Assembly (NCBI GenBank): GCA_964453315.1
Contig: CAYVSD010000003.1
Location: 8,689-72,688 of the forward strand
Reading direction: 5' to 3'
Source of the DNA: an uncultured Muribaculaceae bacterium
GTDB taxonomy: Bacteria > Cyanobacteriota > Vampirovibrionia > Gastranaerophilales > Gastranaerophilaceae
Length of the DNA stretch: 64,000 nt
Translations under genes and position numbers: made by a program
The notes under the pieces: generated by a model
Database searches by the model: none
The model's input: only the letters and a program-made list of their open reading frames with translations
What the model was told of the DNA's origin: nothing
Part shown: piece by piece, positions 25,842 through 52,919 of the stretch
How positions within the stretch are numbered: the stretch's first letter is position 1
Layout: every line of letters begins with the position of its first letter

Positions 25842-25878
25842 GCTAATTCCCTGTTCTTTGAAAAAACAGGGAATTAGC
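25842..25878 (+). terminator. Long perfect hairpin after the DUF5681 gene
   Basis: GCTAATTCCCTGTT (25842-25855) and AACAGGGAATTAGC (25865-25878) form a 14-bp perfect stem. A weak T tail follows. Confidence 0.45.
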
Positions 25879-26020
25879 TTAATCTCTTGATATTGCTTGG
25901 TTTTAAATAATTTCGAGTGAATAATTCGTATAAAATCCCTGTAAAATCTGTTTTGCAGGGATTTTAATAGCCTAAAACCCAGATATAACGGAGCCAATAG
26001 CTCGCAGGACTGCTTCCGCC

Positions 26021-26093
26021 AGTTTATATATTGTAAATTAATATTTGTTTGGGAGGAGTACTATAGATTTTCAGGACATTTGTGATGGGAGTT
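26021..26093 (+). repeat. Copy A of a repeated end-like module (candidate transposon end or att sequence)
   Basis: 38 of the first 40 nt are identical to 52482-52521 (AGTTTATAT.TTG.AAATTAATATTTGTTTGGGAGGAGTA). Shared CAGGACATTTG and AGTTT blocks follow. TGTAAATT at 26032 would be a Mu-like TG terminus. Confidence 0.6.
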
Positions 26094-26160
26094 TTTAGGC
26101 AAAGTGACCTAATTTTAGGGCAATAGAGGCAGATTTATAGTGTAGAGATTTGCCGGACTA

Positions 26161-26292
26161 TTTTTGCACTTTTGTCCTAATTTTTGCACTATTTTGCACT
26201 AAAAACTTGTCACCCTGAACTTGTTTCAGGGTCTATCCCGCTTGGTATTTAATTTTTAGCGAGTGCAAATAAGTGCAACAAAGTGCAAAAAT
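26161..26292. promoter_or_regulatory. Iteron/operator cluster: 3 x TTGCACT and 3 x AGTGCAA in inverted orientation around a hairpin
   Basis: TTGCACT at 26164, 26184 and 26194. AGTGCAA at 26262, 26272 and 26282 (10-bp phasing). Central hairpin ACCCTGAA/TTCAGGGT at 26212-26232. Located 110 nt upstream of the transposase ATG. Confidence 0.5.
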
Positions 26293-26400
26293 AATTTATC
26301 TTGCATTTTGATATGTGTAGAAATGTCTCTGAGATTGAGATGCAAGACTTGATGTTTCCGAGACAAAGAGCGATTAATGTGTGTATAAAGGAATACGCAC

Positions 26401-28107
26401 ATGGCAGAATTTACACCAGAAAAATGTAAACAAATAGCACTCGCAAGACTTGATATTGTTCACAAGTGGCTTGAGTTCAGAAAGAAATCTCAAAACAAAC
26501 TTCAGGCTGATTATGATTTTGTGAAATTACATAATACTTCAAATTCTCACCTCTTTGAGATTTTAGGCAAGATTTCCCGCGGAAGTTTACACCGTTGGTA
26601 TGCAATGCTAAACGGAACGGAAGATTACACGAAATTATTGCCACAGTACAAATATAGCAGCGTCGATGAATATAGAACCGTTCTTAATGACGATGAAATA
26701 AAAATATTTATGGGATTGCTTTTGCACCCAAATAGACTTTCAATCGGAAAAGCAATCGCGTTAACCAAATATAAATTAAAAGAACAAGGACAGAGTTTTA
26801 TTCCAGCTGATATTACATTCAGACGTTATGCAAAATGGTTCAAAGATAACAATTATGATAAATGGATTCTTGCCCGTGACGGTGAGAAAGCATTATCTGA
26901 TAAAGTCGAACCGTATATAAAACGTGATGCAAGTTTGCTTGAAGTCGGGGATATTCTTGTAGCCGATGGACATAAATTAGCCTTTCAAGTAATAAATCCG
27001 TTTACAGGAAAACCCACTAGAGCTACCCTTGTTGGATTTTTAGATTGGAAATCAACGGCATTAGTAGGTTATGAAATTATGCTTGAAGAAAATACACAGT
27101 GTATTGCAAGTGCCCTGCGTAATTCAATAATCAATCTTGATATGATACCGAAAGTTGTTTATCAGGACAACGGCAGAGCTTTTAGGGCAAAATATTTTAC
27201 TGATGATAAGGGTTTTACTGAGCTTGGCTTTCAAGGTCTATACTCAAAACTCGGAATAGAAACTGTTTTTGCTCGCCCGTATAATGCCAGAGCGAAAGTA
27301 ATAGAAAGATTCTTCAAAGAGTTTCAGGAAAGTTTTGAAAAACTTTTGCCGAGTTATATCGGAAGCAGCATTCAGAACAAACCCGCTTATATGATGCGAA
27401 ATGAAAAATTCCACAAAAATCTTCATAACGATTTTATTCCGACAATTGAAGAAACAATAAAAATGATTGATATGTGGTTGAGTTTCAAGAATTCTCAGCC
27501 TTGTCCGAATGCACCAAATAAAACGATTGCTGAAGTTTTAGAAGAACGAAAAAGACAAAATGTTGATATTAATACTCTTGATGATTTGATGCTTGCAACC
27601 GAAGTTAAAACAATTCAAAGAAACGGAATTAGGTTTTTAAATTGCGACTATTTTGATGAAAGGTTATACGGATTTAAGAGCAAAGTTATAATTAAATATA
27701 ATCTCTTTGACCTAACAAGTATTAAGGTTTATACCCCGAAAGGCGAGTATTTATGCACCGCAGAAAGAGTAACCGAAACTCATCCGATGGCAAAATTACT
27801 AGGGGATGTAAAAGATTATGAGGATTATAAGCAAAAAATAGTCAGACAACGACAGCTGAAAAAGAAAACAGTTGAATCAGTAAAAAAATATCTTCAAAGT
27901 GAGGATATAAAATTGCTTGAAACACAAGTAGAACAATCTGATTATCATTTGCCCCTTCAAATGCCGTTCAAAATGGATTCAAAAAGGGTTCAAACGCTGT
28001 TCAAAAATAATTCAGAAAAATATGAGTATTTAATAATCCATAATCCACAAGATGAATGGATTGCAGAGTTTAAAAAGACAAAGGAGTACAGACTTTTATA
28101 TGAATAA
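26401..28107 (+). CDS. DDE (RNase H-fold) transposase of the MuA/TnsB/TniA type with a Mu-transposase C-terminal domain
   Basis: 568 aa. Candidate DDE residues in ILVADGHKL, VVYQDNGRAF and RAKVIERFFKE. C-terminal barrel RNGIRFLNCDYFDERLYGFKSKVIIKYNLFDLTSIKVY. Confidence 0.8.
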   Translation: MAEFTPEKCKQIALARLDIVHKWLEFRKKSQNKLQADYDFVKLHNTSNSHLFEILGKISRGSLHRWYAMLNGTEDYTKLLPQYKYSSVDEYRTVLNDDEIKIFMGLLLHPNRLSIGKAIALTKYKLKEQGQSFIPADITFRRYAKWFKDNNYDKWILARDGEKALSDKVEPYIKRDASLLEVGDILVADGHKLAFQVINPFTGKPTRATLVGFLDWKSTALVGYEIMLEENTQCIASALRNSIINLDMIPKVVYQDNGRAFRAKYFTDDKGFTELGFQGLYSKLGIETVFARPYNARAKVIERFFKEFQESFEKLLPSYIGSSIQNKPAYMMRNEKFHKNLHNDFIPTIEETIKMIDMWLSFKNSQPCPNAPNKTIAEVLEERKRQNVDINTLDDLMLATEVKTIQRNGIRFLNCDYFDERLYGFKSKVIIKYNLFDLTSIKVYTPKGEYLCTAERVTETHPMAKLLGDVKDYEDYKQKIVRQRQLKKKTVESVKKYLQSEDIKLLETQVEQSDYHLPLQMPFKMDSKRVQTLFKNNSEKYEYLIIHNPQDEWIAEFKKTKEYRLLYE

Positions 28108-28780
28108 GATTTTTGTAAAAACGCAGAATGTGAAAAACTTTATAGGATTAGTTGAAAATCTAATTAATAAGCCGAAAAATATTCCTAAAATGGGACTTGT
28201 TTATGGAGAACCCGGATTAGGCAAATCACAAACAGCATTGTGGCTTGCTTGCAAATACGATGGAATTTATCTTCGTGCATCAAACCTTATGACTGGCAGA
28301 TGGCTTTTGGAAGAGATGGTAAAAGAGCTTGATGAAATTCCGAGATTTCTGACATCAGATAATTTCAATATCGTGGTTAAAAAGTTGAAACAAAATCCGC
28401 AGATAATTATAATTGATGAAATTGATTACCTGATGAATAACTATAAAACAATTGAAACTCTGCGGGATATCCACGATGAAACCGGATGCCCGATAATTTT
28501 TATCGGAATGGGTTTGGCACACAGAAAACTTGAACGGTACGAGCATCTTTATGATAGGTTTTCAGAAATTTTAAAGTTTGAAAATTTTGGAATAAATGAT
28601 TTATCACAAATAATCGGACAACTTTCGGAGATTCCATTTGCTCCGGATGCTATTGAATATATCCATTCAAAATACAACAGGTTCAGACAAATTGTTCAGC
28701 TGATAAACCAAATGGAAACTTTTTTAAAGGACAATAATTTAACCGAAATTACAAAAGAAATTATGGAGCAGATTTTATGA
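28100..28780 (+). CDS. AAA+ transposition ATPase (TniB/MuB/TnsC-like)
   Basis: Start ATG at 28100 overlaps the transposase stop (ATGAATAA); the track's 28052 start is probably too early. Walker A GEPGLGKSQT. Walker B IIIIDEIDYL. Confidence 0.75.
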   Translation: MNKIFVKTQNVKNFIGLVENLINKPKNIPKMGLVYGEPGLGKSQTALWLACKYDGIYLRASNLMTGRWLLEEMVKELDEIPRFLTSDNFNIVVKKLKQNPQIIIIDEIDYLMNNYKTIETLRDIHDETGCPIIFIGMGLAHRKLERYEHLYDRFSEILKFENFGINDLSQIIGQLSEIPFAPDAIEYIHSKYNRFRQIVQLINQMETFLKDNNLTEITKEIMEQIL

Positions 28781-29019
28781 ATATAGAAAAATTGGTACGA
28801 CATTTAAAGGAATTTACTCTTGATGAAATTGAAATGATTGCAGAATGTGACTGTAAAACGGAACTTGAACAGCTTTTGAACAAGGGTAAATTGGTCTTTG
28901 AACAAGGTTTGTATAAATATAAGGAGCCGGAGCAAAAACAAACTTTTGAATTTATTGCAAAACCAAAATTATACAAAACAAAAAAATCTTATTTAAAGAT
29001 ATGGCTTTGTGTTATTTAA
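28777..29019 (+). CDS. Small hypothetical protein
   Basis: 80-aa ORF whose start overlaps the ATPase stop (ATGA). No motif recognised. Confidence 0.4.
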   Translation: MNIEKLVRHLKEFTLDEIEMIAECDCKTELEQLLNKGKLVFEQGLYKYKEPEQKQTFEFIAKPKLYKTKKSYLKIWLCVI

Positions 29020-29285
29020 ATAACAGAGATTTGACACATTCAACATACAAAGGCTATTGTTATCAACTTAAATATAACATTCTGCCCTATTTTGGCGAAA
29101 AATATATTGATGAAATAACCTATGAAATGCTAATAGATTTTATGACTATGATGAAATCAAAATATAAACCTAAAACAGCAAGTAATGGTGTTACTTTGGT
29201 TGGAAGTATTATGAAATATGCGTTTTTTGAAGGGTATATAAAATACAACCCTTACTTTGGTGTAATTAATTCAAAATGTAAATAA
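29001..29285 (+). CDS. Stand-alone tyrosine-integrase N-terminal SAM-like (core-binding) domain; catalytic domain absent
   Basis: 94 aa. THSTYKGYCYQLKYNILPYFGEKYIDEITYEMLIDFMTMM...TASNGVTLVGSIMKYAFFEGYIKYNP matches the integrase N-terminal domain and ends exactly where the catalytic domain should begin. Confidence 0.5.
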   Translation: MALCYLNNRDLTHSTYKGYCYQLKYNILPYFGEKYIDEITYEMLIDFMTMMKSKYKPKTASNGVTLVGSIMKYAFFEGYIKYNPYFGVINSKCK

Positions 29286-29294
29286 GGAGATACT

Positions 29295-29702
29295 ATGACA
29301 AAATTAGATAAATTATCGCAAGCAGAACAGATGTACATTTATGAGAACCAACCACTCGATTTGATTGGTAAAAAACTTGATCTTTCTCGCAGAACTTTAT
29401 TCTATTGGAAGAAAGAATACGAATGGGATAAAAAGAAGTTTGAAAACGGCAGAGAACAGGAACTTTTTAATCGTGAACTGCTAAATTTTGCACAAAAAAT
29501 TATGTATAAAATTTCAAATGATATTGATAATAACAAGCAAACTCCACAGGCAGAAATGTATTCGCTGATGAATATTTTAAAAAATCTGCCACAGGTTAAA
29601 CAACAAATTACCGAGCCAAAACAAAAGCAAAAGTCTAAAGAGGAAGAATGTTTACCGGAAGATATTGTAAAAATAGTTGAAAGAGATATTTTAGGAATGT
29701 AA
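29295..29702 (+). CDS. HTH protein resembling DUF1804 / small-terminase-like proteins of transposable phages
   Basis: 135 aa. Strong Shine-Dalgarno (AAGGAG). LIGKKLDLSRRTLFYWKKEYEWDKKK resembles the 'iA..lgvs..Tly.W..k..W' motif. Confidence 0.4.
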   Translation: MTKLDKLSQAEQMYIYENQPLDLIGKKLDLSRRTLFYWKKEYEWDKKKFENGREQELFNRELLNFAQKIMYKISNDIDNNKQTPQAEMYSLMNILKNLPQVKQQITEPKQKQKSKEEECLPEDIVKIVERDILGM

Positions 29703-29766
29703 TAGATAATATGTCCATATCTGACATAGCTCACATTTATGATATTATTAAAAAGAGGTAAATATC

Positions 29767-30564
29767 ATGATTAAAGAACTTAGAACTTACGATACAATAG
29801 TTGGACTTAGTGACTTTGATGAATATTCATACTGTGAAAAAGACCAAATGTGGTATGAAGATGCAAAAGAAGTTTTGCCTCAACCGGAAAAAGAATCCGA
29901 GGTTGTTTCTGATTTAATATGTGAAATAAAGGTGAACCATGATGCAAGTATATGGGACGAAGCTGAAGATTGGAATAAACTTGAAGAGGATAAAGACGGC
30001 CTAAGATTATTTGCGGAGTTTTTATTTGGAGATAACTTTGGTTGGGATTGTACAGACAATGCCTTTTTATTAAAAACTCCAAATCAGGTTTTTATAGCAG
30101 GGCTCAATGACTATGGTCTTTGGGAAGTGGAATCATTCACTAAAAAGTTGAAAAATCAAGCATATGCAACTGAATATTCTGAATATGGTGGTGTCTTGAA
30201 ATTTATTGCTTGGACTAATGAAGATAATCAGACAAGATTTGTTATACATTCATATAACGAAAAGGTTGTAATGATACTTTGTCTTGGAGGAAATACAAAC
30301 GCAATAGTTTCGCCATATATCTTGAAGTTACTCAATGAACTTTCTGTTCCGACTTTTGTAATTTGTACGTTCCCATTTTCGTACGAACCAAACAAGAAAA
30401 AGACTTTGGCTTTAAGTTGTTTAACTGAAATCAATAAACTTAATGATAACAGGTATTTTCTGCGAAATGACGATCTTCTCGACTTGAACAGTCATTATAC
30501 TTTAGAGCAGATGTTCGGATTTCAAAATGAAGAAATCGCAAGAAAAATAAATGAAAGGAATTAA
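29767..30564 (+). CDS. Hypothetical protein; C-terminal two thirds resemble a degenerate FtsZ/tubulin GTPase-domain core
   Basis: 265 aa. VFIAGLNDYG, KFIAWTNEDNQ, ILCLGGNTNAIVSPYI, FVICTFPFSYEP and LRNDDLL occur in the same order as the FtsZ T1 loop, NTDxQ, the T4 loop GGGTGTG, PFxFEG and NDxLL. The Gly-rich loops are not conserved. Confidence 0.35.
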   Translation: MIKELRTYDTIVGLSDFDEYSYCEKDQMWYEDAKEVLPQPEKESEVVSDLICEIKVNHDASIWDEAEDWNKLEEDKDGLRLFAEFLFGDNFGWDCTDNAFLLKTPNQVFIAGLNDYGLWEVESFTKKLKNQAYATEYSEYGGVLKFIAWTNEDNQTRFVIHSYNEKVVMILCLGGNTNAIVSPYILKLLNELSVPTFVICTFPFSYEPNKKKTLALSCLTEINKLNDNRYFLRNDDLLDLNSHYTLEQMFGFQNEEIARKINERN

Positions 30565-30887
30565 GCGGTATTGTTTACAGGTATTATAAGGTTTAGTTAT
30601 AGTTACCTTCGCCATTGATATTTTAGGCGATTTAATCGAAAGATTTAGTTTTGGTGAGTCCGATACATAAAAATCAGGTGAGAATTCATAAAAATTATAA
30701 TTTTAAAAAATTTATAAATGCCCGATGCTGGCATAGACGTATTTTATAATTTTTCTGTAACAGATAAAAAAGGAGAAAATTATGAAAAAGATTGTCAGTT
30801 TAGTTTGTTTATTAGCGTTAGTTAATGCATTTATTCCGGCTTTTACCGCTACAAAAGTTCCTGCAGGAACGACCATTCCAATTTCAA

Positions 30888-48800: not shown

Positions 48801-50186
48801 TATGTTAATATTCCGCCCTGCCGTAATTCGAGTACCTTGTTGTATATTAACAACGCTTGAAGTTCTTGGTCCTTCAAAGCCGTTAAAAATGCCTGACGAA
48901 AAATATTCGGAAAGCTTTGCATTTGCTCTTTGAGTAGTATCTATTGAGCCGTCATTACCTACAATTGCATCTTTCAGAAGAAGTATAGCAGTAGGTGATA
49001 ATAAATTTATGTTTTGTTCTGTTTTTGATGTAGATTCCGCATATACAGAAACATCATTTGTTGCTTCTATTACGGCGTTTTTAATTGTAACATTAGCCTC
49101 CGCTCCGCCTGATGTTCCCCAAAGACTTGTTAGAGAGTAATTAGGAGAAAATAAATCCACGACAGCATTTTTGATAAATGCAATAGAATCAGGACTTAAA
49201 GTTGAAATTATTTTTTCGTTAGTTGCAAGTGCCTGTATTTCAACATCTTTTGACTTTATATTTGAATCTTCAATTTTGATTTCCGATTTTACCAAATCTT
49301 TGTGTTCTTGTTCGGAATATTTGGCATTTGACTTTATATCAATTTTATTTGAGGCAACCAAATCCGATTTTTGAACATCAATTTTTGCATTAGAGTCACT
49401 TTGAGCTAAAATGACTATTTTACCGTTTTGTAAATCAAACGTTGTTCCGTCTGTTATATTATGAGAAACTAAATTGTCAAAAAGGGTTTTTGCCGTATCG
49501 TAATCCGTAAATGCAGTATTAGTATCTTTCAAACCAGAAACAATACCGGCATGAGAATTATTTGTACCTTCCACTTTTATTTCTTTTCCGTAAAGATTTA
49601 CTTCTCCTCTCGCTAAAATCTTTCCGTTTACAACGATATTTCCAGTTGAATCTTTTAATAATGAGTTATATTTTTCAGCACCGACTTGGTAGGTTGATAA
49701 ACTATCCAAACTACCATTGATATGCTGATTATATTTATCTAAAAACGCATTATAAGAATTATGAGAAGGAGTAATTAACGACAAAGAACCAACATTTAAA
49801 ATACCTGATGACCCTATAACAACACCGCTGGGAGATACAAAAATTGCGTGTCCGTTAAAGAAGTTGTTCCCTTGCATTGTATTCAAAATACCATTTATAT
49901 TGACCTGATTATTTACAAGGTTTATGAATTTATCATAACCGATTTTGTAAATCAGGTTTGCAATATCACCTTCTGTAAGGTTAAAGTTGGAGTACTGCCT
50001 GAATTGAGTTGAACCTGAAAATTTTTGGCCTTCAATATTGTATACATTATGGCCACTTTGTTGCGTCGGATCTACACCCGAAATACTAGACGCAAAAACA
50101 AACGGTGAAGAGTTATAAAGCATAAAACTTATAACAAGTGCACCGGCAACAATCCGTTGTCTTATTTTATTTTCTGATATATTCAT
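30888..50186 (-). CDS. Giant two-partner-secretion exoprotein (TpsA / filamentous haemagglutinin-like adhesin), 6432 aa
   Basis: Extended signal peptide plus TPS (haemagglutination activity) domain: NIEGQKFSGSTQFRQYSNFNLTEGDIANL...NGHAIFVSPSGVVIGSSGILNVGSLSL. Thousands of residues of beta-helix-type repeats follow. A divergent TpsB gene lies next door. Confidence 0.9.
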   Translation of the reverse strand: MNISENKIRQRIVAGALVISFMLYNSSPFVFASSISGVDPTQQSGHNVYNIEGQKFSGSTQFRQYSNFNLTEGDIANLIYKIGYDKFINLVNNQVNINGILNTMQGNNFFNGHAIFVSPSGVVIGSSGILNVGSLSLITPSHNSYNAFLDKYNQHINGSLDSLSTYQVGAEKYNSLLKDSTGNIVVNGKILARGEVNLYGKEIKVEGTNNSHAGIVSGLKDTNTAFTDYDTAKTLFDNLVSHNITDGTTFDLQNGKIVILAQSDSNAKIDVQKSDLVASNKIDIKSNAKYSEQEHKDLVKSEIKIEDSNIKSKDVEIQALATNEKIISTLSPDSIAFIKNAVVDLFSPNYSLTSLWGTSGGAEANVTIKNAVIEATNDVSVYAESTSKTEQNINLLSPTAILLLKDAIVGNDGSIDTTQRANAKLSEYFSSGIFNGFEGPRTSSVVNIQQGTRITAGRNININSFADSSLTATSTLLAQVLPIGIYGVGTSTVSKAIVSDSFLNSTGDTNVGALSLNTNKIVMSSDSLLSMPVEDGAFAILLNNTTKTTTEAKVNNSEVNARDLNVEAVNLSNSDVKVAMTALVDKNVQNQGDSANSAVSLVGILNRSSNNVTAEINQGTINTTEDVNVLAQSLNINKNSASGKIQDANVVSPSAKFSDAKKKLKGFQTTYLNRSLFSRVKGKTEIEASGNSLVQAGGALVWSETANNANAKITNSTVTAGEDVDVRANTIDLTANSALADSNGKAKVGVGLGVIVNEESNNTNAIIDNSTIYADNIDVYSTTELPMNQGAITFGVNLPFNIYGVDKIQFGGDFASEANGKWDLSFIYPGSTASYSAGADFTGVANQNITSTVTDAILPKFRLTGFFNNFAQTSSAAEGVDVSASIIYNEVVNNTLADIRNNSNINLDGDLTVNAVNSVIGYNAAGMIDVLINKLNYKLPGQPDWEYVPQMDTDSFGVGANVIWDIYNNNAVAKIENSTVTSENGDVNVTSANEQAYITAIATGARSKSIGIDGSVNVQKLKGNTYSNVLNNSEITAKNVNVNAGNGVIKTSGGKINLREDANQAELKEERKAEDQITNIIATGAWVSQYKEIDNNVQESSKGVAIGADVNYTSIERNIKALVENSTTTSALNTAINANTYSQTLNLAVAAAFSGGVVQKNKNISKIDSGVDKAKNDNNEVFGNLFENEDQYMKNPVGNALAPFSLSGAGAVNLTMDTTNVESGISNTTVNTGSAFNVISNKESRIINMSGGLGKSKKVGAGAALNFYRQNGKISSKINSSTVEFSAPTPTLNVTSNNTNKIVDIAIGAGVGANSQAEATGFRGAAGGSYTRNTITPTIEAIINDSAVSSTDDSKLITANVSANSQITILDIAGGGAYLNGGTLGVGAGFATNYNDINNTINALVQNSTLTDINDLSVQSLAQNNFTNVAVAGAIVNETSTGFLFNGALNLDFIHNAMSSKIVNSDVLASGDIDVSATSNTDNLNVAGTLNYSSANTGLGVNGNVVVNSQKNDLTAEINNGNDKEIIADNVSVAAQSNEKSTGTAVGAAFAKKNTMAAANIVLNIIRNSVNSLVKGKILTSDNLDVSAYDETTLYSRGVTASVAGPDALAAVGGTINYDILNKTVNAKIFDSVIDSKDVTVNASSINSFGGTKNAQDKYDRDNFSDDNYDEKLLAKNDKGEYTGLKQGANFTNWNMFYDVSAGAALAFAGAWIIKNVKNEIEAEVSNSVIGANNLDVVAQDYSIKNIISGAISGSGQVGVGASVLITKDNSNVYSLITNGSDLDIENRLRADAKNIKDNIQVLAALGGGGTGYAGVNVLKNDNTDKTVAKIDKLKMDEPVLPKNPTSEQTAIYNEQKQQWDNAQNVKVKASQTYVNAQSDQNSTHVIVAGGGAGTVALAINPAINTYKSETKAGILNTTVENSSINVNANNDTKTRDIQAGVAGSGVVAGVGLVVINDYADTIKSTIDKSVIDTTKDISVLSNSSLYSLNVLASVGVAIEGVSVVANVVKNHVLKETEASIKNSTVENAGNIEVIANKGKQDKIINVSGGVAVAATGVSGTTGNIYNIYKNKTSADVISTEIEQATSLDVEAYSDKVITNRNVGVSAGIVGAGILVDTLVNELDSTTTATIDVKNKQIFLTDDVTVLANDKMQSSNTMVAVYGGAGFAGANVNFFDSDNLVKAQILSETDGLISARNVDVNSSSEIALGNTNVGVALGIGGIAGDVFGLRLGKRSDKYSTSEEKSNITQAKDESKNLYDKTSQNGQSYYTPTSSPENLKTGSIASSNANISTTEDVNINAQSKLKGIDSDKLSLKNVNTSVGGAAIGVGIKGVKLNNNTLAETSGGEINAAGDVNLSSEFKNNVEIINTDVNVAGVSVAGSSALYVNSSDTTSKIANSTISADNVNVISNSDAKAELTGTSVLVSGASFGISVTDATDINKIVAIITGDTNIEASGAININATNNADLSSVLRTTIVSLVAPITYIKNTAEEKSITKAIIENVNGKIASNGLNIIADSDLMSVNSRTNVVSVTGISAAALGGAGATMDAELTAGIDSLNGLVVDNVGQTQILTGVKHSDNTKASDIKATSKILSVNSSILGVYTGTEAKVTNKAKINAKLKANEHNADSLVIKAMQNEVNDASLDSTVATLLGVSVAEITATANGDLKVDIAGNNTISNAANIYINNTALNKVSMFSAIVAFVSGLKTSLESSMQTNTNVNLSGNFNSGSLTAEINTNRNTDFDLTSRAGGVIGAGNLVLKNEIKGDSILTLSNLITDSNKKVNSMNLSNVATNKSNTITHQYSGGVIGSGAINYNVKFDTNTKLNVENSEINSLSDVGLNVKNNTLIADSSDSLSEGIVAVSKNVYSQEYNSNAELNVKNSKIKARNVNLKSAANVASTGDKHLTYYGKGSGFYASQKLDITNNIKENSKINIENSELRAKDKLKLEILTESKFKQQTNAKASGFIASPKNSNTLNVTGNNTLNIDNKSKLYSDSKVDINLDSKNDLEARANAKSEHFGFKDPQAESYLKVEINNEINNNGVIEAGNDVDIDFMGNSTSNLTQYAHTEAQAAIPTSTEKGSLTKKVNNKLNINSGAKVISGNDIDITYSSGAGKESSEVSYESVCRVVFGIPITSKGNKSNFTSTHTRSLKLDGEIIAGNGNDRYMKINQDGSIDSSTYGFYDYEYALKNDGIADIDNMKQNNIASIQIDLKNTKDNITEITETITSLNDKKSSLEQDYAENKEITDYIQNLQENGYTFKTVSEVNNIIQNKIKTTVMASGVLEEKYNTILTSYNTRLAEIEDINSQIYSGAREGEYITAPTISEFLDANDYGLSSEQKTVMANAMNSEKALISATDKGDFTTYNNQYILTNKIVTKDNKNIGEEYADILNTQNSIQSTIDSISTKIDDNTQVKEELIARKQTLESGLTKAQQDVIEDDANKKYAIVFNYISPNSSVIKLNNIRNNEISGTGSIKTAASNFVIDNYSQRSIVFNGIDLNASAQSGLFINGKNMQKFKGSEKALSGVSAYYYIENFIGSNFANIPTTGVHYLSNSQNNAPDGITITNYFDTSNPFLDVSLVPDIIFYDDITSNSALNIKNTSGNIVFDLDSIVSNNLNLEAQQGNVDITLKKNDAKLTLKANDKIFAGKNINIKANEVDIKGKLATGYSDRTITITDSMLNNLIVDETTGQKNMINLGENDNIKAIYTDNQIYLYNVGQTGGNITITKKDGSNVAGVIDADITMAKGYQAISIDNKTSKQLNVSNISNKSIDGIFSANGATLKRGVTYIGYDSTNTIINSVGKLVLEGIINNGEGTLNIVTNNGLDINPVINNLDEVQDSIIASGETLIDIKNGASDISGNISHTGNLNIIKDSYTPFVISSKIKNKNGDINITNKEYNKGIDFSGSIENQNGDVIISSQGGYNQTGKITNNNGLIKIVNNHNGMASIYDSIINNNGDIVFETAGFDLNSNIEAVEGSVNILNPGWKFITGDNSSIKAKTGISIYNGDNHTNKLVIKSDILNTGSGKISITNVNTDGIELLKGVTNKGGEIVILDAGKTVISNAVTSELGDITIDSNGIDINNVITADKGNISISSTNNYKQDAAIINNQGDTAIIVSNGTTSINGNITNAIGDISITTSGVSADIASNIKTSAGNIAIENKKGNLTLKNTSSVEATDGISIKNTNNAQNLNIAGTVNNTNSGDVKISSLNALSLDNTVVNKTGSISISSKDLSINNNISTEKGTISVSSSNSYSQNANITNKDGNTLINAEGTSATINGKVENTKGNIRLITNSTTSNINSTVETLDGTIEVKNKKGGLTFTDTSAIKATKGVSIENTGSALNINAPITNSDAGNIEISSTNGLSLTENITNQNGNFIVSNTAGNLVLAGAITNAIGNVQITNSGNELFVGGNIENSGHIVITQDGTGNSVIQSLIANTGVIDITNNSYSDLTISKNISTKNGNINIISNGNSVISNTITTDFGNIVVTSNGLTLGSAVVEKAGDITITSTNGYTQNGNITTDYGKILISLSNGSNTINGDIINTKGNIGIETNSLNTQFDSNIKTSDGKIEIDNKKGNLEFKGAKDIEATNGILIQNSGSSEKLTINAELTNDDHGIEISSKNGLDIKGSIINKKGDLSIFNTNGDLTSESKITNLDGEVFFANGGGKIDITGDIDNIGNFAITQKGSGTVNIAGLIDNIGNIRIDNQSISNLAISNAITNENGNIVISSNGNSIITSAISNNITDGTGNITITSNGLSVKDVSTKKGEITLTSTNGYSQSGNVVNNEGNTTITSTNGTNVIIGDITNTKGNIGITTNSTSTNIASNISTSDGTVSIENQKGDLELSNVSATEGISIKNTNNAQKLNIDGTVSNKNNDIVISSLKDLTISNTVTNETGNVDISSLNGLTISDAISNETGNINISNNSGLATISGVITNNNGNILISNSGNSILSNSVSTNTGDVSITSNGLSVKDVSTNKGEITLTSTNGYSQSGNVVNNEGNTTITSTNGTNVIIGDITNTKGNIGITTNSTSTNIASNISTSDGTVSIENQKGDLELSNVSATEGISIKNTNNAQKLNIDGTVSNKNNDIVISSLKDLTISNTVTNETGNVDISSLNGLTISDAISNETGNINISNNSGLATISGVITNNNGNILISNSGNSILSNSVSTNTGDVSITSNGLSVKDVSTNKGKITLTSTNGYSQSGNIINQEGNTVISSTNGANMIIGDITNTKGDIEITTNGAGTSIASDIKTSDGSVNIENKKGNIELSSVTATDGITLNNTGNQLSINSDITNLDGDIDILSNNGIHAKGAISNTNGDINITNINNDLIISNSINNALGDVAITNSGARLTVSGDITNNGLLNITQAGNNEANISGKIENNGNVNIANNSTSNLVVSNAIEVQNADITVTSNGNSIISDKISTDIGNITIASNGLSIAGISTNKGDITLTSTNGYSQSGNIVNKEGNTVISSTNGSNVFIGDITNTKGNISITTDSVSTSIGTDIKTYDGTVNIENKQGNLFLTDVSTVSATNGVAIKNTNNAQKIDISGTVSNKNNDVVISSLNGLTISNAILNETGDINISNNLGLAAISGAITNGNGNIILTNNGTTGISGAVSTNIGDVTIASNGLSVKDVSTNKGEITLTSTNGYSQSGNVVNGEGNTTITSTNGTNVIIGDITNTKGNIGITTNSNSTSINSSVKNTDGNITITNKKGAINLLSDSNIETKNGNINISTEENSDKLTTNGKIANSESGNIVISTVNGAVVNGIVENTNGMINLNNTDKGSLQIGANILNRKGETNIANTSSNGGIYLATSGKIHNVNDEISLTNTGSKGIDIEGLIKTDAKNINITNQNSNIYIGEADSNNDNYITSAKDIIINQTNGSILNGSETNNDKHAYKTLLVSNGDLMLTVSDGDIGRTDAPKPGVSTKAETRVPDESINVKIDGKITAKAENENKTDKRFINLRAKESDLNLYNIVSDGNIVLTAADMIQTGEPDEQGYAPYKSYSVKNAGDIGDYVISGQNVSIVASENIGEDGKNLTMIQDHLGNPDSRVYLEAYDSIYFDGRSNKVGEKLRIAQARTKGLGQIVLDLEDETTIENLVFGNTISVKQKGKNLVINNISMYGEHLDDDDSILPIAEEARNAIGKQIIIEAYDAYANGEGNSTITIKNADILGLGLKDESGNRIVDVKLVADNIVFDSNATSDITKEPIVFEVRGVSKDDVVSVGGTRTNYNIKDGNYVANNVKINIDTDTNNNHGVIFNSLYADNAAVTTNMTDLTIKDAYITNKATIINGNHDTSDYNHIVVVDNNTRNLVPSDVQLYTQKTGNFNLGMNESINITTNAPVVHYLDNILVNGYHSENSFTRLTLKENIVQQVSKDIYKNLVAPDASLIKTVEVKLDTSNITSEEVINYTLSDEENLESDD
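34579..35856. repeat. Two essentially identical 639-bp (213-aa) tandem units inside tpsA
   Basis: The protein segment GEITLTSTNGYSQSGNVVNNEGNTT...SITSNGLSVKDVSTNKG occurs twice without change. The antisense ORFs 34549-35211 and 35218-35850 are identical over about 200 aa. More diverged units flank it (about 33.2-38.5 kb). Confidence 0.85.
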
Positions 50187-50344
50187 GAATATTGTATACT
50201 TCTTATTATTAATAATTGCTTCTAGATTATTGTTTTATGTAATTATTATAACACTTATTAATAAGAAATTAAACCTCAAATTATTTTTTTGTTACATTCA
50301 TAGTATGGAATATTACAATTTTTTGATGTACAATATTATAGGAA

Positions 50345-52273
50345 ATGAGAAGAAGATTTTTTTTTGCAATTATATATTTAGTTTTATCCTGTGGGGCAGC
50401 CATTGCGGCACCTCAAGACATTAATCCTTCGGTGTTTCTTCCTGCGGGTTCTTTAAATACTCATGATATGGACACACTCAGAAAATTTGAGATGGAAAAG
50501 CAAGAGCAAAAAGATTTTGAGCAGTACAAAGATAATAATATGCAAAAAGAGTCTGTAAAAAAAAAGAAAAAAATAAAAGCAAAAGTTGAAAAAGCAAATA
50601 TAAATGAATATGCAACAAAAGGGGTTTATGTTGAAAATATTGAAGTTTCCCCCTCTGAAATTTTAACAGAAGAAGAAATAAAGAGTATTATTGAAGAATA
50701 CACACAAACGAATATTACTTTTGAACAATTACAGGAAATAGCGAACAGAATAAATAAATTATATCTTGATAAAGGTTATGTAACTGCCAGAGCATACATT
50801 CCGCAGCAAACAATAGAAAATGAAACCGTAAAAATAGAACTGTTAGAAGGCAGAGTTGGAGATATTACCATAACAGGCAATAGATGGACTCGTACAAAAT
50901 ACATAAAAGACCGAATTGATTCCCAAAAAGATTCTATTTTTAATGTCATAAAACTTGAGCAGAATATGACTCTGTTTAATCGTTATAATTATGGGATAGA
51001 CCTCACAGGGAATCTAAACCCAGGGGCTAAAAAACTTGGGACAACGGATATAGAACTTGTTGCACACGAAAAATCCCCTTTCCATTTAACGGCTTTGATG
51101 GATAATGCAGGTCGTGAAACTATTGGGAAATATAGAGCTGGATTGATGTTGCAAGACGATAGTTTGTTTGGAATGAGGGATAAATTAACTTTAGGTGCTT
51201 ATGCATCAAGGTATTCTGTCACACCATTTGCTGATTATAATATTCCTGTAAATAAAAAAGACGGCAGAATAGGATTTTCTTTTTCATCCAGTAATTCAAA
51301 AATAGGTTACGGTGATTACAGAATATTTAATATTAAAAGCAGGTCTCAAAATTATTCAATATACTTTAATCAACCTATTATCCGAAAATCTTATATGGAA
51401 TTGTCAAGTATAACTTCGTTAGATTATAAACAAGCAACAACAAGTTTTGACGGCGAAGATTTATATACAGATAAAATACCATCCGCTAAAACCGGTTTAA
51501 ATTTTAGATATGATACTAAAAGAGGGATTTGGTATTTAAATCAGAGTGTAGCTTATGCCGCACCATTATTCCAAAAAGATATCAATTACGTAAAAATTGA
51601 AGGCGGAATTTTAAGATTACACGATTTCGGTCATGGTATTGTTGGTCAGTTAAGAGGGAATTATCAGGTAATTCCTAAAGATGTTGTTCCCTATGCTGAT
51701 CAATTTGTTGCCGGTGGACTTGCAACAGTAAGAGGTTATTCAGAAGGTCTTTTAATTGGTCGTTCCGGATATTTATTGAGCGGAGAACTTTTATTCCCTC
51801 TTGCACCAAGAACAAGAGTTGATAAGAAGACAAACAAAACAAGGAATTTTATAGGAAACTATTTAAAAGGATTTGTGTTCTGCGACCACGCAATGGTTTT
51901 CCCGTATAAGGGCAATGGTACAGGGTCTGAGGGCTACAATAAAGATGACGTATTATTAAGTATTGGTTTAGGTACGAGAATAAACCTTCCTGGGGATCTA
52001 TCTATAAGGCTTTCTTGGGGTTTTCCGCTAATGAAAAATAAATATGAAGCTCCCCAAAGTTGGGGAAGATTTCATATAGAAATGAGTCTTTCACCTGATT
52101 TTGATGCTATCGTAAGATTAAGAAAGCCGAAAAATGTTGAAAAAGTTAAAATTGATGATGATATAAAATTAGTAAAAAATCATAAAAAAGAGAAAACTAT
52201 AAAAACACAAAAACGTACAATTATTAAATCTTTAAGTCCAGAACAAAAAATGAAATTGGGTTATTATAAATAA
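50345..52273 (+). CDS. TpsB outer-membrane transporter (ShlB/FhaC/HecB family, POTRA + beta-barrel)
   Basis: 642 aa. Signal peptide MRRRFFFAIIYLVLSCGAAIAAP. POTRA-like segment (GVYVENIEVSPSEILTEEEIKSIIEEY...LYLDKGYVTARAYIP). Barrel motif FVAGGLATVRGY. Divergent from tpsA with a 158-bp spacer. Confidence 0.85.
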   Translation: MRRRFFFAIIYLVLSCGAAIAAPQDINPSVFLPAGSLNTHDMDTLRKFEMEKQEQKDFEQYKDNNMQKESVKKKKKIKAKVEKANINEYATKGVYVENIEVSPSEILTEEEIKSIIEEYTQTNITFEQLQEIANRINKLYLDKGYVTARAYIPQQTIENETVKIELLEGRVGDITITGNRWTRTKYIKDRIDSQKDSIFNVIKLEQNMTLFNRYNYGIDLTGNLNPGAKKLGTTDIELVAHEKSPFHLTALMDNAGRETIGKYRAGLMLQDDSLFGMRDKLTLGAYASRYSVTPFADYNIPVNKKDGRIGFSFSSSNSKIGYGDYRIFNIKSRSQNYSIYFNQPIIRKSYMELSSITSLDYKQATTSFDGEDLYTDKIPSAKTGLNFRYDTKRGIWYLNQSVAYAAPLFQKDINYVKIEGGILRLHDFGHGIVGQLRGNYQVIPKDVVPYADQFVAGGLATVRGYSEGLLIGRSGYLLSGELLFPLAPRTRVDKKTNKTRNFIGNYLKGFVFCDHAMVFPYKGNGTGSEGYNKDDVLLSIGLGTRINLPGDLSIRLSWGFPLMKNKYEAPQSWGRFHIEMSLSPDFDAIVRLRKPKNVEKVKIDDDIKLVKNHKKEKTIKTQKRTIIKSLSPEQKMKLGYYK

Positions 52274-52440
52274 AAAATGGAGTGAATATCAATCTCACAG
52301 TTAATTTAATCTTATTCTTAGTGTTAAATTAAAAGTACCCAACAGACCGACAGGTCTGTCTGTGGTTCGAGCGAGGAGCGAGCAGAGGGCGAAGCAAATT
52401 TTGCTTGTGGCAACAAGCCACTAAAAGCAAAATGCGTAGT

Positions 52441-52481
52441 CCCGTTTATTGCGAGCGACTCAAGACTCTCCCACCGTCTCT
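52441..52481 (+). other. Decayed duplicate of the tmRNA 3' end (candidate displaced att half-site)
   Basis: CCCGTTTattgcgagcGACTcaagactCTCCCACCGTCTCt versus tmRNA 2461-2497 CCCGTTTtggacgtgggttcGACTCCCACCGTCTCC. This includes an exact GC-rich 11-mer, CCCACCGTCTC. Confidence 0.55.
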
Positions 52482-52553
52482 AGTTTATATTTTGCAAATT
52501 AATATTTGTTTGGGAGGAGTATCTTTTATCAGGACATTTGGTCGAAAGAGTTT
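52482..52553 (+). repeat. Copy B of the end-like module (no transposase follows)
   Basis: Homologous to 26021-26093. A second shared block (TTTTTGCAC..TTTTGTCC...TTGCACTAAAAA) lies at 52669-52708 versus 26161-26205. Same orientation as copy A. Confidence 0.6.
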
Positions 52554-52919
52554 CATGTCTTTGCAAGGGCGAAAGCCCGAAGCAATCCAGTTTTTGCCAA
52601 TTTATAAAGGTCGGAAGTTACTTGATTAAAAATGTCCTAAATATCCGATTTCAGTAGCAAAAATGTCCTCTTTTTGCACCCTTTTGTCCCCAAAATTGCA
52701 CTAAAAAGTAGGGTTGACTTTAGTCAACCATTTCAAGATATTTGGTAGACTGAAGTCTACCCTACCAACTTATATGACATAAATTGGTGTAATTTTAAGG
52801 ATAAATACAAAATTTCAGAGTTAAATTTGGAATAATTAATAAAATTTTGGTCGGGTTGAAACCCGACCTATTTACTAATTTTTCATATTCCTTATAAAAA
52901 ACTATATGATTTATTGCTA

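What the first reader, a model, noticed from the sequence alone, without database searches (positions are those of the whole stretch)
26006..52730. A ~230-bp end-like module present twice in DIRECT orientation, each copy abutting a tmRNA-3'-like remnant
Seen:
- 26021-26060 and 52482-52521 are identical at 38 of 40 positions (AGTTTATAT.TTG.AAATTAATATTTGTTTGGGAGGAGTA).
- Both copies continue with CAGGACATTTG and, 140-190 nt later, with TTTTTGCAC..TTTTGTCC..TTGCACTAAAAA followed by a hairpin.
- Copy A is followed by the DDE transposase and AAA+ genes. Copy B is followed by nothing.
- TGTAAATT / TGCAAATT would give the TG terminus typical of Mu/Tn7-superfamily ends.

Two readings are possible. (a) Two successive insertions of a transposon that homes to the position just downstream of ssrA were later pushed apart by island integrations into ssrA, with copy B a solo end. 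(b) The copies are attL/attR-like direct repeats bracketing a 26.4-kb element (transposition genes plus the TPS locus). Either would be an unusual targeting behaviour for a TniA/TniB-only element.
Basis: partly seen in the sequence, partly recalled or inferred. Interest (0 to 1): 0.65.

Follow-up and report, generated by a model that had tools for sequence, protein, structure and literature searches.

The report
tRNA/tmRNA-flank-homing Mu-like transposon, inserted twice
The two "modules" are left ends of a widespread gut-bacterial (Gastranaerophilales) transposon family that inserts, always in the same direction, about 40-100 bases behind tRNA and tmRNA genes; its likely targeting protein, a stand-alone integrase DNA-binding domain, has not been described.

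Summary
The repeat is real: 38 of 40 identical, plus the shared motifs. But the module is two things joined.

- **Target DNA, not transposon.** The 40-nt block is the spacer that follows an ssrA 3' end in this lineage.
- **The transposon left end (LE)** starts only at 26062 in copy A and 52520 in copy B. The guessed TG terminus is wrong.
- **Copy A** is the LE of a complete 26.3-kb element, 26062-52333. I found its 48-bp right end. A 5-bp duplication (AGTAC) flanks it. The ShlB-type transporter and the giant protein gene are its cargo.
- **Copy B** is a lone LE of a sister lineage.
- **tmRNA remnant.** Only copy B abuts a true ssrA 3' copy (13 nt exact). Copy A abuts the end of a 23.5-kb island carrying a serine recombinase.

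In 82 related loci the transposase gene lies 0.4-0.6 kb downstream of a same-strand tRNA gene (at least 15 amino-acid specificities) or tmRNA gene. The core genes are a Mu/TnsB-like transposase, an AAA+ ATPase, a 169-aa protein (winged helix plus integrase core-binding domain) and a helix-turn-helix (HTH) protein. There is no TnsA, TniQ or Cas.

Reading (a) is largely right. Reading (b) is wrong. A structured ~135-nt element, "X", always followed by a tRNA 3'-end copy, remains unexplained.

The parts
2098..2500 (+). Intact ssrA (tmRNA) gene, the original homing landmark.
   Evidence: ARAGORN and Rfam RF00023 at 137 bits.
2501..26020 (.). Island 1 (~23.5 kb), inserted exactly between the ssrA 3' end and the spacer. 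It carries a large serine recombinase (5050-6666, minus strand), DUF2924, a sigma factor, an Eco57I-type methylase, a SNF2/PLD helicase-nuclease, PARG, WYL, a UvrD-PD-(D/E)XK protein, a ParB-methylase and DUF5681.
   Evidence: Pfam. The right end has no significant similarity to ssrA or to the sequence upstream of B and is not matched by the X model.
26021..26061 (+). Spacer A. This is non-transposon target DNA: the AT-rich spacer that follows an ssrA 3' end in this lineage, plus the first bases of element X. Its last 5 nt (26057-26061, AGTAC) are the left copy of the target-site duplication.
   Evidence: It resembles the spacer after intact ssrA in L029, L038 and L042. It is absent from the element at other tRNA loci. 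Coordinates.
26062..26400 (+). Left end (LE) of transposon A. The tip is TATAGATTTTCAGGACATTT. A candidate transposase site TGTGATGGGAG lies at 26081-26091. Three direct TTTTGCAC repeats (26159-26200), a hairpin (26207-26233) and three inverted repeats (26262-26293) precede the transposase ATG.
   Evidence: nhmmer LE profile covers 26062-26260, E 7e-55. Consensus from 32 loci. Inverted repeat I10.
26401..28107 (+). tnpA: Mu/TnsB-like DDE transposase, 568 aa.
   Evidence: Pfam Mu-transpos_C and rve. phrog_310, E 3e-85. Nearest solved structure is type V-K CAST TnsB, E 6e-4. 25-29% identical to Mu-like phage transposases. More than 5400 homologues.
28052..28780 (+). tnpB: AAA+ ATPase of the MuB/TnsC/TniB type, 242 aa here and 226 aa in relatives.
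   Evidence: Pfam AAA_22, AAA and TniB. phrog_296 'DNA transposition protein', E 6e-40.
28777..29285 (+). Gene C, split here by a frameshift in an A-run at about 28985-29000. In relatives it encodes a 169-184-aa protein with a winged helix at the N terminus and a tyrosine-recombinase core-binding (SAM-like) domain, but no catalytic domain. It is the candidate target selector.
   Evidence: Frames compared. Pfam Phage_int_M and Phage_int_SAM. 799 homologues, all ~169 aa. AlphaFold2 model, pLDDT 84. Foldseek matches to the core-binding domains of lambda Int, Tn1549 Int, IntB and IntS.
29295..29702 (+). Gene D: a 135-aa helix-turn-helix protein, weakly DUF1804/Terminase_5-like. It is conserved as the fourth core gene.
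   Evidence: Pfam and PHROGs. Synteny in L001 and L002.
29767..52273 (.). Cargo of transposon A: a 265-aa ORF (29767-30564), a giant repetitive 6432-aa ORF (30888-50186, minus strand) and a ShlB/FhaC-type outer-membrane transporter (50345-52273).
   Evidence: ORF list. Pfam ShlB and POTRA_2. No Pfam hit in the first or last 1500 aa of the giant ORF. Internal 639-nt repeats.
52286..52333 (+). Right end (RE) of transposon A, 48 bp: ATCAATCTCACAGTTAATTTAATCTTATTCTTAGTGTTAAATTAAA. The family consensus ends ...TTACA, whereas this copy ends ...TTAAA.
   Evidence: The same 48-bp sequence occurs in L013, L019, L028, L044, L063, L069 and L073 and in 60 metagenome loci.
52334..52338 (+). Right copy of the 5-bp target-site duplication, AGTAC.
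   Evidence: Removing 26062-52338 gives GGGAGGAGTACCCAACAG, which is colinear with the uninterrupted GTGAGGAGAACCCAACAA of L029.
52334..52467 (+). Element X, about 135 nt. It has two covarying hairpins plus a T-arm 5' half (GTGGTTCGAG). Transposon A split it at its 5' edge. Its nature is unresolved.
   Evidence: nhmmer. RNAalifold. Covariance model hit, 161 bits. Pair counts: 88% paired against 69% in shuffles. No Rfam family.
52468..52481 (+). Copy of the ssrA 3' end (T-stem 3' strand plus acceptor 3' strand, CTCCCACCGTCTCT). This is the true 'tmRNA remnant' of copy B.
   Evidence: 13-nt exact match to 2483-2495. Every X in relatives is followed by the 3' end of the local tRNA or tmRNA.
52482..52519 (+). 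Spacer B, the second copy of the ssrA-downstream spacer. It ends in the first bases of another X (GGGAGGAG), which LE_B cuts off.
   Evidence: 38 of 40 identity to spacer A.
52520..52708 (+). LE_B, a lone left end of a sister lineage. The tip is TATCTTTTATCAGGACATTT, followed by AAATGTCC repeats and TTTTTGCAC..TTTTGTCC..TTGCACTAAAAA. No transposition genes follow. Unrelated hairpins lie at 52709-52770.
   Evidence: 71-79% identical copies occur in L096, L114, L116 and L132. In L096 the copy also lies 39 nt after an X-plus-tRNA-Ser-type 3' end. None is followed by this transposase.

Best explanation
The window holds two independent insertions of a family of Mu/Tn7-like DDE transposons from Gastranaerophilales (Melainabacteria). 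The family homes to the DNA just downstream of tRNA and tmRNA genes, always with the left end facing the gene.

**Shown**
- Element A (26062-52333) is complete. It has an LE, four core genes, cargo (the ShlB-type transporter and the giant protein gene) and a 48-bp RE. A 5-bp duplication, AGTAC, flanks it.
- Element A inserted 41 nt behind what was then the ssrA 3' end.
- Element B is only an LE of a sister lineage. It sits 38 nt behind a second copy of the ssrA 3' end.

**Inferred**
- The 38/40 block common to both is the target. This lineage carries tandem units of [ssrA 3' end + ~40-nt spacer + structured element X]. Each transposon landed at nearly the same place, 3 nt apart, in successive units.
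- A 23.5-kb island carrying a serine recombinase later entered at the ssrA 3' boundary and separated ssrA from copy A.

**Proposed mechanism (inferred)**
- A selector protein binds the feature shared by all tRNA and tmRNA genes, the T-arm/acceptor DNA. Gene C is the most likely selector: a winged helix plus a tyrosine-integrase core-binding domain without a catalytic domain.
- The selector recruits or orients the AAA+ protein. The AAA+ protein in turn directs the transposase to insert at least 37 nt downstream in one orientation.
- With no TnsA, transposition is probably replicative, as in Mu and type V-K CASTs.
For: **tRNA/tmRNA adjacency**
- In 57 of 82 related loci a same-strand tRNA or tmRNA gene ends upstream of the transposase gene, 364-608 nt upstream in 46 of them (Ser, Asp, Leu, Thr, Ile, His, Ala, Lys, Tyr, Gln, Gly, Met, Arg, Glu; 10 tmRNA). 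Most of the remaining loci lack upstream sequence.
- The gap from gene end to LE is 37-100 nt in 39 of 44 loci and is never below 37.
- GGTTCRA lies on the same strand within 150 nt of 39 of 51 distinct LE junctions. Background is 2.4%, and the motif is on the reverse strand at only 3 of 51.

**Ends**
- The LE consensus starts at TATAGG/TATAAC in all loci, whichever tRNA is adjacent.
- The 48-bp RE recurs at 60+ loci.

**Insertion of element A**
- AGTAC lies at 26057-26061 and 52334-52338. Joining the flanks restores the X 5' end, colinear with L029.

**Core genes**
- The four genes are syntenic in L001 and L002.

**Stacking of insertions**
- Truncated older LEs lie between the tRNA and a newer LE in L008, L022, L048 and L088. 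RE abuts LE in L028, L044 and 10 metagenome loci.

**LE_B**
- It is a real, mobile end type. L096 has the same layout (RE, X, tRNA-Ser-type 3' end, 39 nt, LE_B type) at a different tRNA identity.

**Precedents**
- TnsF of Tn6022 is an inactivated tyrosine recombinase used as a Tn7 target selector (PMC10293859).
- TnsD-directed tRNA-targeting Tn7-like elements have a conserved motif 40-50 bp from the end (PMC11837452).
Against: - A 5-bp duplication is seen only for element A. Three other complete copies (L019, L088, L126) have none, and L013 has a different tRNA identity on each flank. This fits replicative transposition or recombination between copies, but neither was shown.
[quoted passage not shown] The determinant could be X, a terminator or something else.
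- The roles of C and D are inferred from fold and synteny only.
- The two ends share only a short tip (TRTAR) and one ~11-nt motif, so the transposase binding sites are not established.
- In element A, gene C is frameshifted and the RE tip is ACA>AAA, so this copy may be immobile.
- One locus (L121) has the opposite orientation.
- None of the five LE_B-type copies seen is followed by a transposase, so LE_B's membership of the same family rests on its tip, its repeat region and its position.
Confidence: 0.75

Rival explanations
1. Reading (b). The two modules are attL/attR-type direct repeats of a 26.4-kb island that integrates into ssrA by site-specific recombination.
For: - A ~55-nt direct repeat (ssrA-like 3' end plus spacer) does bracket transposon A plus X.
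- X-plus-3'-end units in relatives look like attR junctions of tRNA-integrating elements.
- Gene C has an integrase-like domain.
Against: - No catalytic tyrosine-recombinase domain is present. All 799 homologues of C are ~169 aa.
- The segment has its own LE and RE, which recur at many other tRNA loci without this repeat.
- A 5-bp duplication lies precisely at the LE and RE tips.
- The left 'remnant' is not ssrA-like.
Confidence: 0.05
2. A decayed Mu-like prophage that inserted at random. Its position near ssrA remnants is coincidence, and copy B is an unrelated repeat.
For: - The transposase and ATPase match PHROG families of transposable phages.
- They are 25-29% identical to the transposases of BalMu-1, phiRTG5 and D3112-like phages.
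- D is weakly DUF1804-like.
Against: - No capsid, tail, lysis, repressor or ner genes appear in any of the loci examined.
- Adjacency and orientation relative to tRNA or tmRNA genes hold in 57 loci.
- Cargo differs from locus to locus.
- The ends are conserved as LE and RE of a 10-26-kb non-phage element.
Confidence: 0.03
3. The real target is element X, or the X-plus-3'-end junction, rather than the tRNA gene itself. Transposons lie near tRNA genes only because X does.
For: - At least 15 of 60 RE junctions abut X at varied positions.
- Several LE junctions cut X (L010, L014, L023, L035, L038 and both window copies).
- Insertions occur behind X-borne pseudo 3' ends as well as behind real genes (L029, L034, L088, L096, L126).
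Against: - Many LE junctions follow a tRNA terminator directly, with no X remnant (L001, L012, L013, L016, L021). X could still lie beyond the RE there.
- The 37-nt minimum is measured from a tRNA-type 3' end, whether real or X-borne.
Confidence: 0.15
4. The 230-bp module is a dispersed intergenic repeat of the REP or MITE type, unconnected with the transposase.
For: - These metagenomes are rich in small hairpin repeats.
- Parts of LE_B and of X have contig depths in the hundreds.
- LE_B-type copies lack adjacent transposases.
Against: - The 40-nt block occurs only twice in the window. It was not found in the 142 fetched loci or in JGI metagenome contigs.
- The LE_A type is linked to the transposase gene at a fixed ~340 nt in more than 50 loci.
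Confidence: 0.02

Closest known systems
TnsD/TniQ-directed tRNA-targeting Tn7-like transposons of cyanobacteria, including type I-D and I-B2 CAST homing (PMC11837452, PMC9881144)
   Same: - A DDE TnsB-type transposase with an AAA+ regulator.
- Insertion downstream of tRNA genes in a fixed orientation, a few tens of bp from the gene end.
- Asymmetric ends.
- 5-bp duplication (seen here in the window copy).
- Host phylum related to cyanobacteria.
   Different: - No TnsA and no TniQ/TnsD.
- The target range covers at least 15 tRNA specificities plus tmRNA, not one tRNA.
- The distance to the gene is variable (37-100 nt), not fixed.
- The transposase is nearer to Mu-like phage transposases.
Tn6022 TnsF, an inactivated tyrosine recombinase used as a target selector (Faure et al. 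2023, PMC10293859)
   Same: A tyrosine-recombinase-derived DNA-binding module without catalysis, encoded in the transposition operon of a Tn7-type element.
   Different: - TnsF is 498 aa, with zinc fingers, two core-binding-like domains and a partial catalytic domain. It works with TniQ and targets comM.
- Protein C is 169 aa, with a winged helix and one core-binding domain. No TniQ is present.
- The role of C as selector is untested.
[quoted passage not shown]
   Same: - The nearest solved homologue of the transposase is ShCAST TnsB.
- No TnsA.
- A short AAA+ protein.
- Natural homing next to tRNA genes with the LE proximal.
   Different: - No Cas12k, tracrRNA, CRISPR array or TniQ.
- X lies outside the element, and the transposon interrupts it. 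It is therefore not an element-borne guide.
Bacteriophage Mu and Mu-like transposable phages; Tn5053/Tn402 (TniABQR)
   Same: - A MuA-type transposase with the Mu-transpos_C domain and a MuB/TniB-type ATPase.
- 5-bp duplication.
- Probably replicative transposition.
   Different: - Not a phage: no virion genes.
- Not a res-hunter: no TniQ and no TniR resolvase.
- Targeted rather than near-random insertion.
Tyrosine-integrase genomic islands in tRNA and tmRNA genes (Williams 2002, cited in PMC11837452)
   Same: - The same landmark genes.
- Tandem arrays behind one gene.
- Displaced 3'-end copies (the X units behave like attR junctions).
   Different: - The transposon does not recombine within the gene and does not replace its 3' end. 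It inserts downstream by DDE transposition.

Membership tests
Tn7-like transposons | TnsB-type DDE transposase (rve plus Mu-transpos_C) | tested here: met
   Pfam. Nearest PDB sequence is ShCAST TnsB, E 6e-4.
Tn7-like transposons | Adjacent AAA+ regulator (TnsC) | tested here: met
   AAA_22, AAA and TniB domains, phrog_296.
Tn7-like transposons | TnsA endonuclease | tested here: not met
   No such gene or domain in the window element or in L001 and L002.
Tn7-like transposons | TniQ/TnsD-family target selector | tested here: not met
   No TniQ (PF06527) hit for any core ORF at E up to 1.
Tn7-like transposons | 5-bp target-site duplication | tested here: inconclusive
   Present for the window element (AGTAC). 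Absent at L019, L088 and L126.
Tn7-like transposons | Site- and orientation-specific insertion next to a conserved gene | tested here: met
   57 loci with a same-strand tRNA or tmRNA gene upstream. T-loop motif statistics.
Tn7-like transposons | Asymmetric ends with several transposase-binding repeats and TGT...ACA tips | tested here: inconclusive
   The ends are asymmetric: LE at least 200 nt, RE 48 nt. The tips are TATAR and TTACA. Only one shared ~11-nt motif was found.
Transposable (Mu-like) phages | MuA-like and MuB-like genes | tested here: met
   phrog_310 and phrog_296. 25-29% identity to phage transposases.
Transposable (Mu-like) phages | Virion, lysis and repressor genes within the ends | tested here: not met
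   None in the window element or in L001 and L002.
Tn5053/Tn402 family | TniQ and TniR resolvase with a res site | tested here: not met
   No such domains among the core genes.
Type V-K CAST | Cas12k, tracrRNA and CRISPR array inside the element | tested here: not met
   No candidate ORF, and no Rfam CRISPR or tracrRNA hit in the window.
Tyrosine-integrase integrative island (reading b) | Catalytic tyrosine recombinase, and attL/attR repeats of the target gene's 3' end at the element's own boundaries | tested here: not met
   C has only the core-binding domain. The left 'remnant' is not ssrA-like. The element's boundaries are the LE and RE with a 5-bp duplication.
Any Rfam family (for element X) | Match to a curated covariance model | tested here: not met
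   No relevant hit at E up to 10 on 52200-52900.

The most novel reading that the evidence does not exclude
A non-phage Mu/Tn7-like transposon family has replaced TniQ/TnsD or Cas targeting with a stand-alone integrase core-binding-domain protein. That protein reads the T-arm/acceptor DNA common to all tRNA and tmRNA genes, so dozens of safe landing sites are available per genome. Its usual landing zone is occupied by X, a previously undescribed ~135-nt structured element. X duplicates tRNA 3' ends. It may be a miniature integrative element, an attR relic kept under selection, or an ncRNA.
Probability: 0.3. Interest if true: 0.8.

Novelty: new variant of a known kind. Interest (0 to 1): 0.66.

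Why it matters
- **A new targeting solution.** Targeted DDE transposons (Tn7, CASTs) are studied as models of target choice and as tools for inserting large DNA. This family appears to reach a generic, multi-copy, safe target class, the 3' flank of any tRNA or tmRNA gene. It does so with a very small gene set and without TnsA, TniQ or Cas. If the 169-aa integrase-derived protein is the selector, it would be a second, independent case of a tyrosine-recombinase DNA-binding module taken over for transposon targeting.
- **Genome plasticity in gut Melainabacteria.** The family is abundant, with more than 5400 transposase homologues, mostly from rumen and gut Gastranaerophilales. It carries large cargo, here a 19-kb giant-protein gene and its transporter. 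That makes it a major source of genome change in an uncultured gut lineage.
- **Element X.** It gives a testable lead on how tRNA 3' ends become duplicated.

Tried and rejected
- **Partial tmRNA next to either copy.** Rfam at a permissive threshold found none. Local alignment supports only the 13-nt ssrA match at copy B.
- **An inverted copy of the LE tip as the right end.** None lies within 10 kb in any locus. The RE turned out to be a different 48-bp sequence.
- **X as an element-borne guide RNA (scaffold plus tRNA-matching 'spacer').** Rejected for the window: the transposon ends before X and interrupts it, with a duplication. In L013 the match continues through the whole native terminator.
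- **An X-like element at the right end of island 1.** The covariance model does not support it.
- **An empty-site search with the 24-nt spacer core in JGI metagenomes.** No hits.
- **Contigs of four public runs laid on 52150-52950.** They showed only that X and LE_B pieces are high-copy. There were no informative joints.
- **RNA runs holding X.** None usable.
- **A right end for element B in 52709-52900.** Not convincing. The 26-nt match to the flank of an RE in L112 is probably a small hairpin repeat.
- **A fixed-distance motif upstream of the LE.** None found.
- **Literature.** No description of this family in the held library.

Full report
**1. The observation**

The 40-nt blocks 26021-60 and 52482-521 match at 38 of 40 positions and are the only such pair in the window (D15). 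Both copies continue with CAGGACATTTG and, 140-190 nt later, with the TTTTTGCAC/TTTTGTCC/TTGCACTAAAAA cluster and hairpins. That cluster is the only part of the two downstream segments that aligns significantly.

Copy A precedes a Mu-type DDE transposase (26401-28107) and an AAA+ gene (28052-28780). Copy B precedes nothing of the kind.

The window has one intact ssrA gene, at 2098-2500. Upstream of B, 52468-52480 is identical to ssrA 2483-2495, the T-stem and acceptor 3' strand. Upstream of A there is no significant similarity to ssrA or to the sequence upstream of B. The 'remnant' claim therefore holds for B only.

**2. What the transposase locus is**

The transposase has more than 5400 homologues. 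The best 120 are at least 92% identical and come from Gastranaerophilales/Melainabacteria genome bins of gut and rumen.

In two long contigs the gene order is transposase (568-572 aa), AAA+ (226 aa), a 169-184-aa protein with a phage-integrase SAM-like domain, a ~135-aa HTH protein, and then variable cargo. In the window the third gene is split by a frameshift in an A-run. None of these proteins matches TnsA, TniQ, a resolvase or a Cas protein.

The transposase matches the PHROG family of Mu-like transposases. It is 25-29% identical to those of BalMu-1, phiRTG5 and D3112-like phages. Its nearest solved relative is the TnsB of the type V-K CAST. No phage structural genes are present.

**3. Homing**

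In L001 the element follows tRNA-Ser, and in L002 it follows tRNA-Asp.

Of the 82 related loci (80 from reference genomes plus L001 and L002), 57 have a tRNA or tmRNA gene on the same strand upstream of the transposase gene, ending 364-608 nt upstream in 46 of them. At least 15 amino-acid specificities are represented, and 10 loci have tmRNA. Most of the other loci are cut by a contig end.

Similarity between loci with different tRNAs begins at TATAGGTTTTCAGGACAG or TATAACCTTTCAGGACAG, ~340 nt before the ATG. This defines the left end (LE). In the window it starts at 26062 (TATAGATTTTCAGG) and, for copy B, at 52520 (TATCTTTTATCAGG). The 40-nt block therefore lies outside the element, and TGTAAATT is not its tip.

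- The gap from the tRNA end to the LE is 37-100 nt in 39 of 44 cases and never below 37.
- The T-loop motif GGTTCRA lies on the same strand within 150 nt of 39 of 51 distinct LE junctions. Background is 2.4%, and the motif is on the opposite strand at 3 of 51.

**4. The right end and the duplication**

A conserved sequence, ATCTCcATCTCATAGTTAATTTAATCTTGTTCTGTATGTTAAATTACA, precedes X or another LE in seven loci and at window 52286-52333. A pattern scan found it in 60 more metagenome loci, and conservation stops 48 nt from the tip. It is not an inverted copy of the LE. The ends share only the tip (TRTAR) and one ~11-nt motif, TGWGATGGRAG.

In the window AGTAC occurs immediately left of the LE tip (26057-61) and immediately right of the RE tip (52334-38). 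Deleting 26062-52338 gives ...TTTGGGAGGAGTACCCAACAGACC.... This is colinear, without an indel, with the uninterrupted ...GTGAGGAGAACCCAACAAACC... downstream of ssrA in L029.

Element A is therefore a 26,272-bp transposon inserted with a 5-bp duplication. The 265-aa ORF, the 6432-aa repetitive ORF and the ShlB/POTRA transporter gene are its cargo. Pfam finds no TPS domain at either end of the giant ORF.

Three other complete copies (L019, L088, L126) lack a duplication. L013 has tRNA-Leu on one side and a tRNA-Ile 3' end on the other. I attribute this to replicative transposition or recombination between copies. That attribution is inferred, not shown.

**5. Why the 40-nt block is duplicated**

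In several loci a ~135-nt element that I call X lies between the tRNA or tmRNA gene and the LE.

- X has two hairpins with many compensatory changes, plus a T-arm 5' half, GTGGTTCGAG.
- With a covariance model, 19 copies give 88% paired cells against 69% in shuffles. 24 of 29 pairs have double changes, and slid controls are near 0.05-0.1 against 0.42. The alignment is fitted to the model, which inflates these numbers somewhat.
- X is in no Rfam family.
- Every X ends ...CAAGACA and is followed by a copy of the 3' part, from the T-loop onwards, of the local tRNA or tmRNA. This copy is often followed by 3-60 nt of the same downstream flank, so it forms a direct repeat with the real gene upstream. 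At least 9 tRNA identities are seen.
- X units can be tandem (L014, L131).

The window, with element A and island 1 removed, reads: ssrA, spacer, X, ssrA 3' copy, spacer, then the start of another X cut by LE_B. This is the L029 arrangement with one more unit. The 38/40 block is the spacer of two successive units.

The two transposons landed 41 and 38 nt behind an ssrA-type 3' end, 3 nt apart within the unit. The same layout occurs in L096 at a tRNA-Ser-type unit: RE, X, 3' end, 39 nt, LE_B type.

**6. Copy B**

LE_B matches the common LE profile only weakly. It has 71-79% identical copies in L096, L114, L116 and L132, so it is a sister type of end. None of those copies is followed by this transposase within the available sequence. 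It is either a solo end or the end of a non-autonomous derivative.

Solo and truncated LEs stacked between a tRNA gene and a newer element are common in relatives (L008, L022, L048, L072, L078, L088). This is expected if each new insertion is measured from the gene and pushes older ones away.

**7. Copy A's left neighbour**

Segment 2501-26020 carries a large serine recombinase next to ssrA, restriction and defence-type genes and a ParB-methylase. Its junctions share the dinucleotide CA (...GTCTC[CA]CCATTT and ...TTCCGC[CA]GTTTAT). This fits serine-recombinase integration at the ssrA/spacer boundary, but it is an inference.

This island, not a transposon-related event, separates ssrA from copy A. 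Because its right end is not tRNA-like, element A probably inserted before the island arrived.

**8. Mechanism**

Shown:
- DDE-type insertion with a 5-bp duplication, in one case.
- Strong regional and orientation specificity for the 3' flank of tRNA and tmRNA genes, and of X-borne pseudo 3' ends.
- A four-gene core.

Inferred:
- Protein C is the target selector. Its AlphaFold2 model (pLDDT 84) has an N-terminal winged helix and a four-helix domain that Foldseek matches to the core-binding domains of lambda Int, Tn1549 Int, IntB and IntS. Integrases of tRNA-integrating elements use this domain to read the T-arm/acceptor region.
- TnsF of Tn6022 is a precedent for a recombinase-derived selector (PMC10293859).
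- TnsD-directed tRNA-targeting Tn7-like elements are a precedent for the distance and orientation (PMC11837452).
- The variable offset suggests a looser coupling, for example an AAA+ filament of variable length, than in TnsD or Cas systems.

D, or the N terminus of the transposase, could equally be the selector. X could be the true target (rival 3).

**9. Novelty**

Targeted Tn7/Mu-type transposons next to tRNA genes are known. What I did not find described in the held literature is this gene set (no TnsA, no TniQ, no Cas, and a stand-alone core-binding-domain protein), the range across tRNA and tmRNA genes, and element X. I rate it a new variant of a known kind.

Noticed in passing
window 52334-52467; also L012 2267-2421(-), L014 259-415(-) and 446-603(-), L029 9485-9642, L034 9497-9647, L096 1664-1822, L131, L121, L093, L141: Element X is a ~135-nt structured element with strong covariation and no Rfam family. 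It is always followed by a copy of the local tRNA or tmRNA 3' end, which forms a direct repeat with the real gene. It may be a miniature integrative element, a conserved attR relic or an ncRNA.
   Followed up: partly
L023 3404-3459, L037 9257-9369 and 10025-10080, L025 10987-11105, L059 11711-11797, L078 7710-7765, L081 1591-1646, L002 9830-9940: The GC-rich hairpin core of X (GCGAGCAGAGGGC...GCCCGTTTAACGCGAGC, with tandem G.A mismatches) also occurs alone as a 56-90-nt insertion. It lies just after the transposase stop codon, in the LE spacer, and apparently inside the transposase ORF of L025 and L037 (these transposase matches are 1752 nt instead of ~1692 nt). It looks like a small mobile palindromic element.
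   Followed up: partly
window 2501-26020: A 23.5-kb island inserted at the ssrA 3' boundary. It carries a large serine recombinase (5050-6666) with DUF2924, a sigma-70 factor, an Eco57I/MmeI-type methylase, a SNF2-PLD helicase-nuclease, PARG, a WYL regulator, a UvrD-PD-(D/E)XK protein and DUF3800. Both junctions share the dinucleotide CA. The integration gives ssrA an encoded CCA.
   Followed up: partly
window 28960-29010: Gene C of element A is frameshifted in the run CAAAACAAAAAAAT. This is either a pseudogene or a homopolymer assembly error.
   Followed up: yes
window 52329-52333: The RE tip of element A reads TTAAA where 58 other copies read TTACA or TTATA. Together with the broken gene C, this suggests the copy is immobilised.
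   Followed up: partly
window 30888-50186 (-) and 50345-52273 (+): The giant 6432-aa ORF, with 585-768-nt (mostly 639-nt) internal repeats, has no Pfam hit in its first or last 1500 aa, so no recognisable TPS domain. Its divergent neighbour is a clear ShlB/FhaC-type transporter. The pair is transposon cargo.
   Followed up: partly
L022 9552-9640, L008 104-170, L048 9499-9560, L088, L072, L077, L078, L079: Stacks of truncated left ends (28-44 nt, or longer internal pieces) lie in direct orientation between a tRNA gene and a complete element. New insertions land inside the first 2-45 nt of older left ends.
   Followed up: partly
L121 about 5300-5560: One element lies in the opposite orientation: its RE tip is ~20 nt behind an X-plus-3'-end unit. 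This is the only exception to the orientation rule that I saw.
   Followed up: no
window 52745-52770 and L112 next to an RE: The 26-nt hairpin-containing sequence GTAGACTGAAGTCTACCCTACCAAC is identical in the window (after LE_B) and directly after an RE in L112. It is probably another small repeat family.
   Followed up: partly
window 23941-25831: A ParB-N/N6-N4 methyltransferase fusion and a DUF5681 gene lie at the right end of island 1. Both are typical of phage or plasmid modules.
   Followed up: no
L013 9535-20173: This element has tRNA-Leu(cag) at its LE side. At its RE side it has X plus a tRNA-Ile 3' end and that gene's native terminator. It is a chimeric flank, as expected from intramolecular replicative transposition or recombination between copies.
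   Followed up: partly
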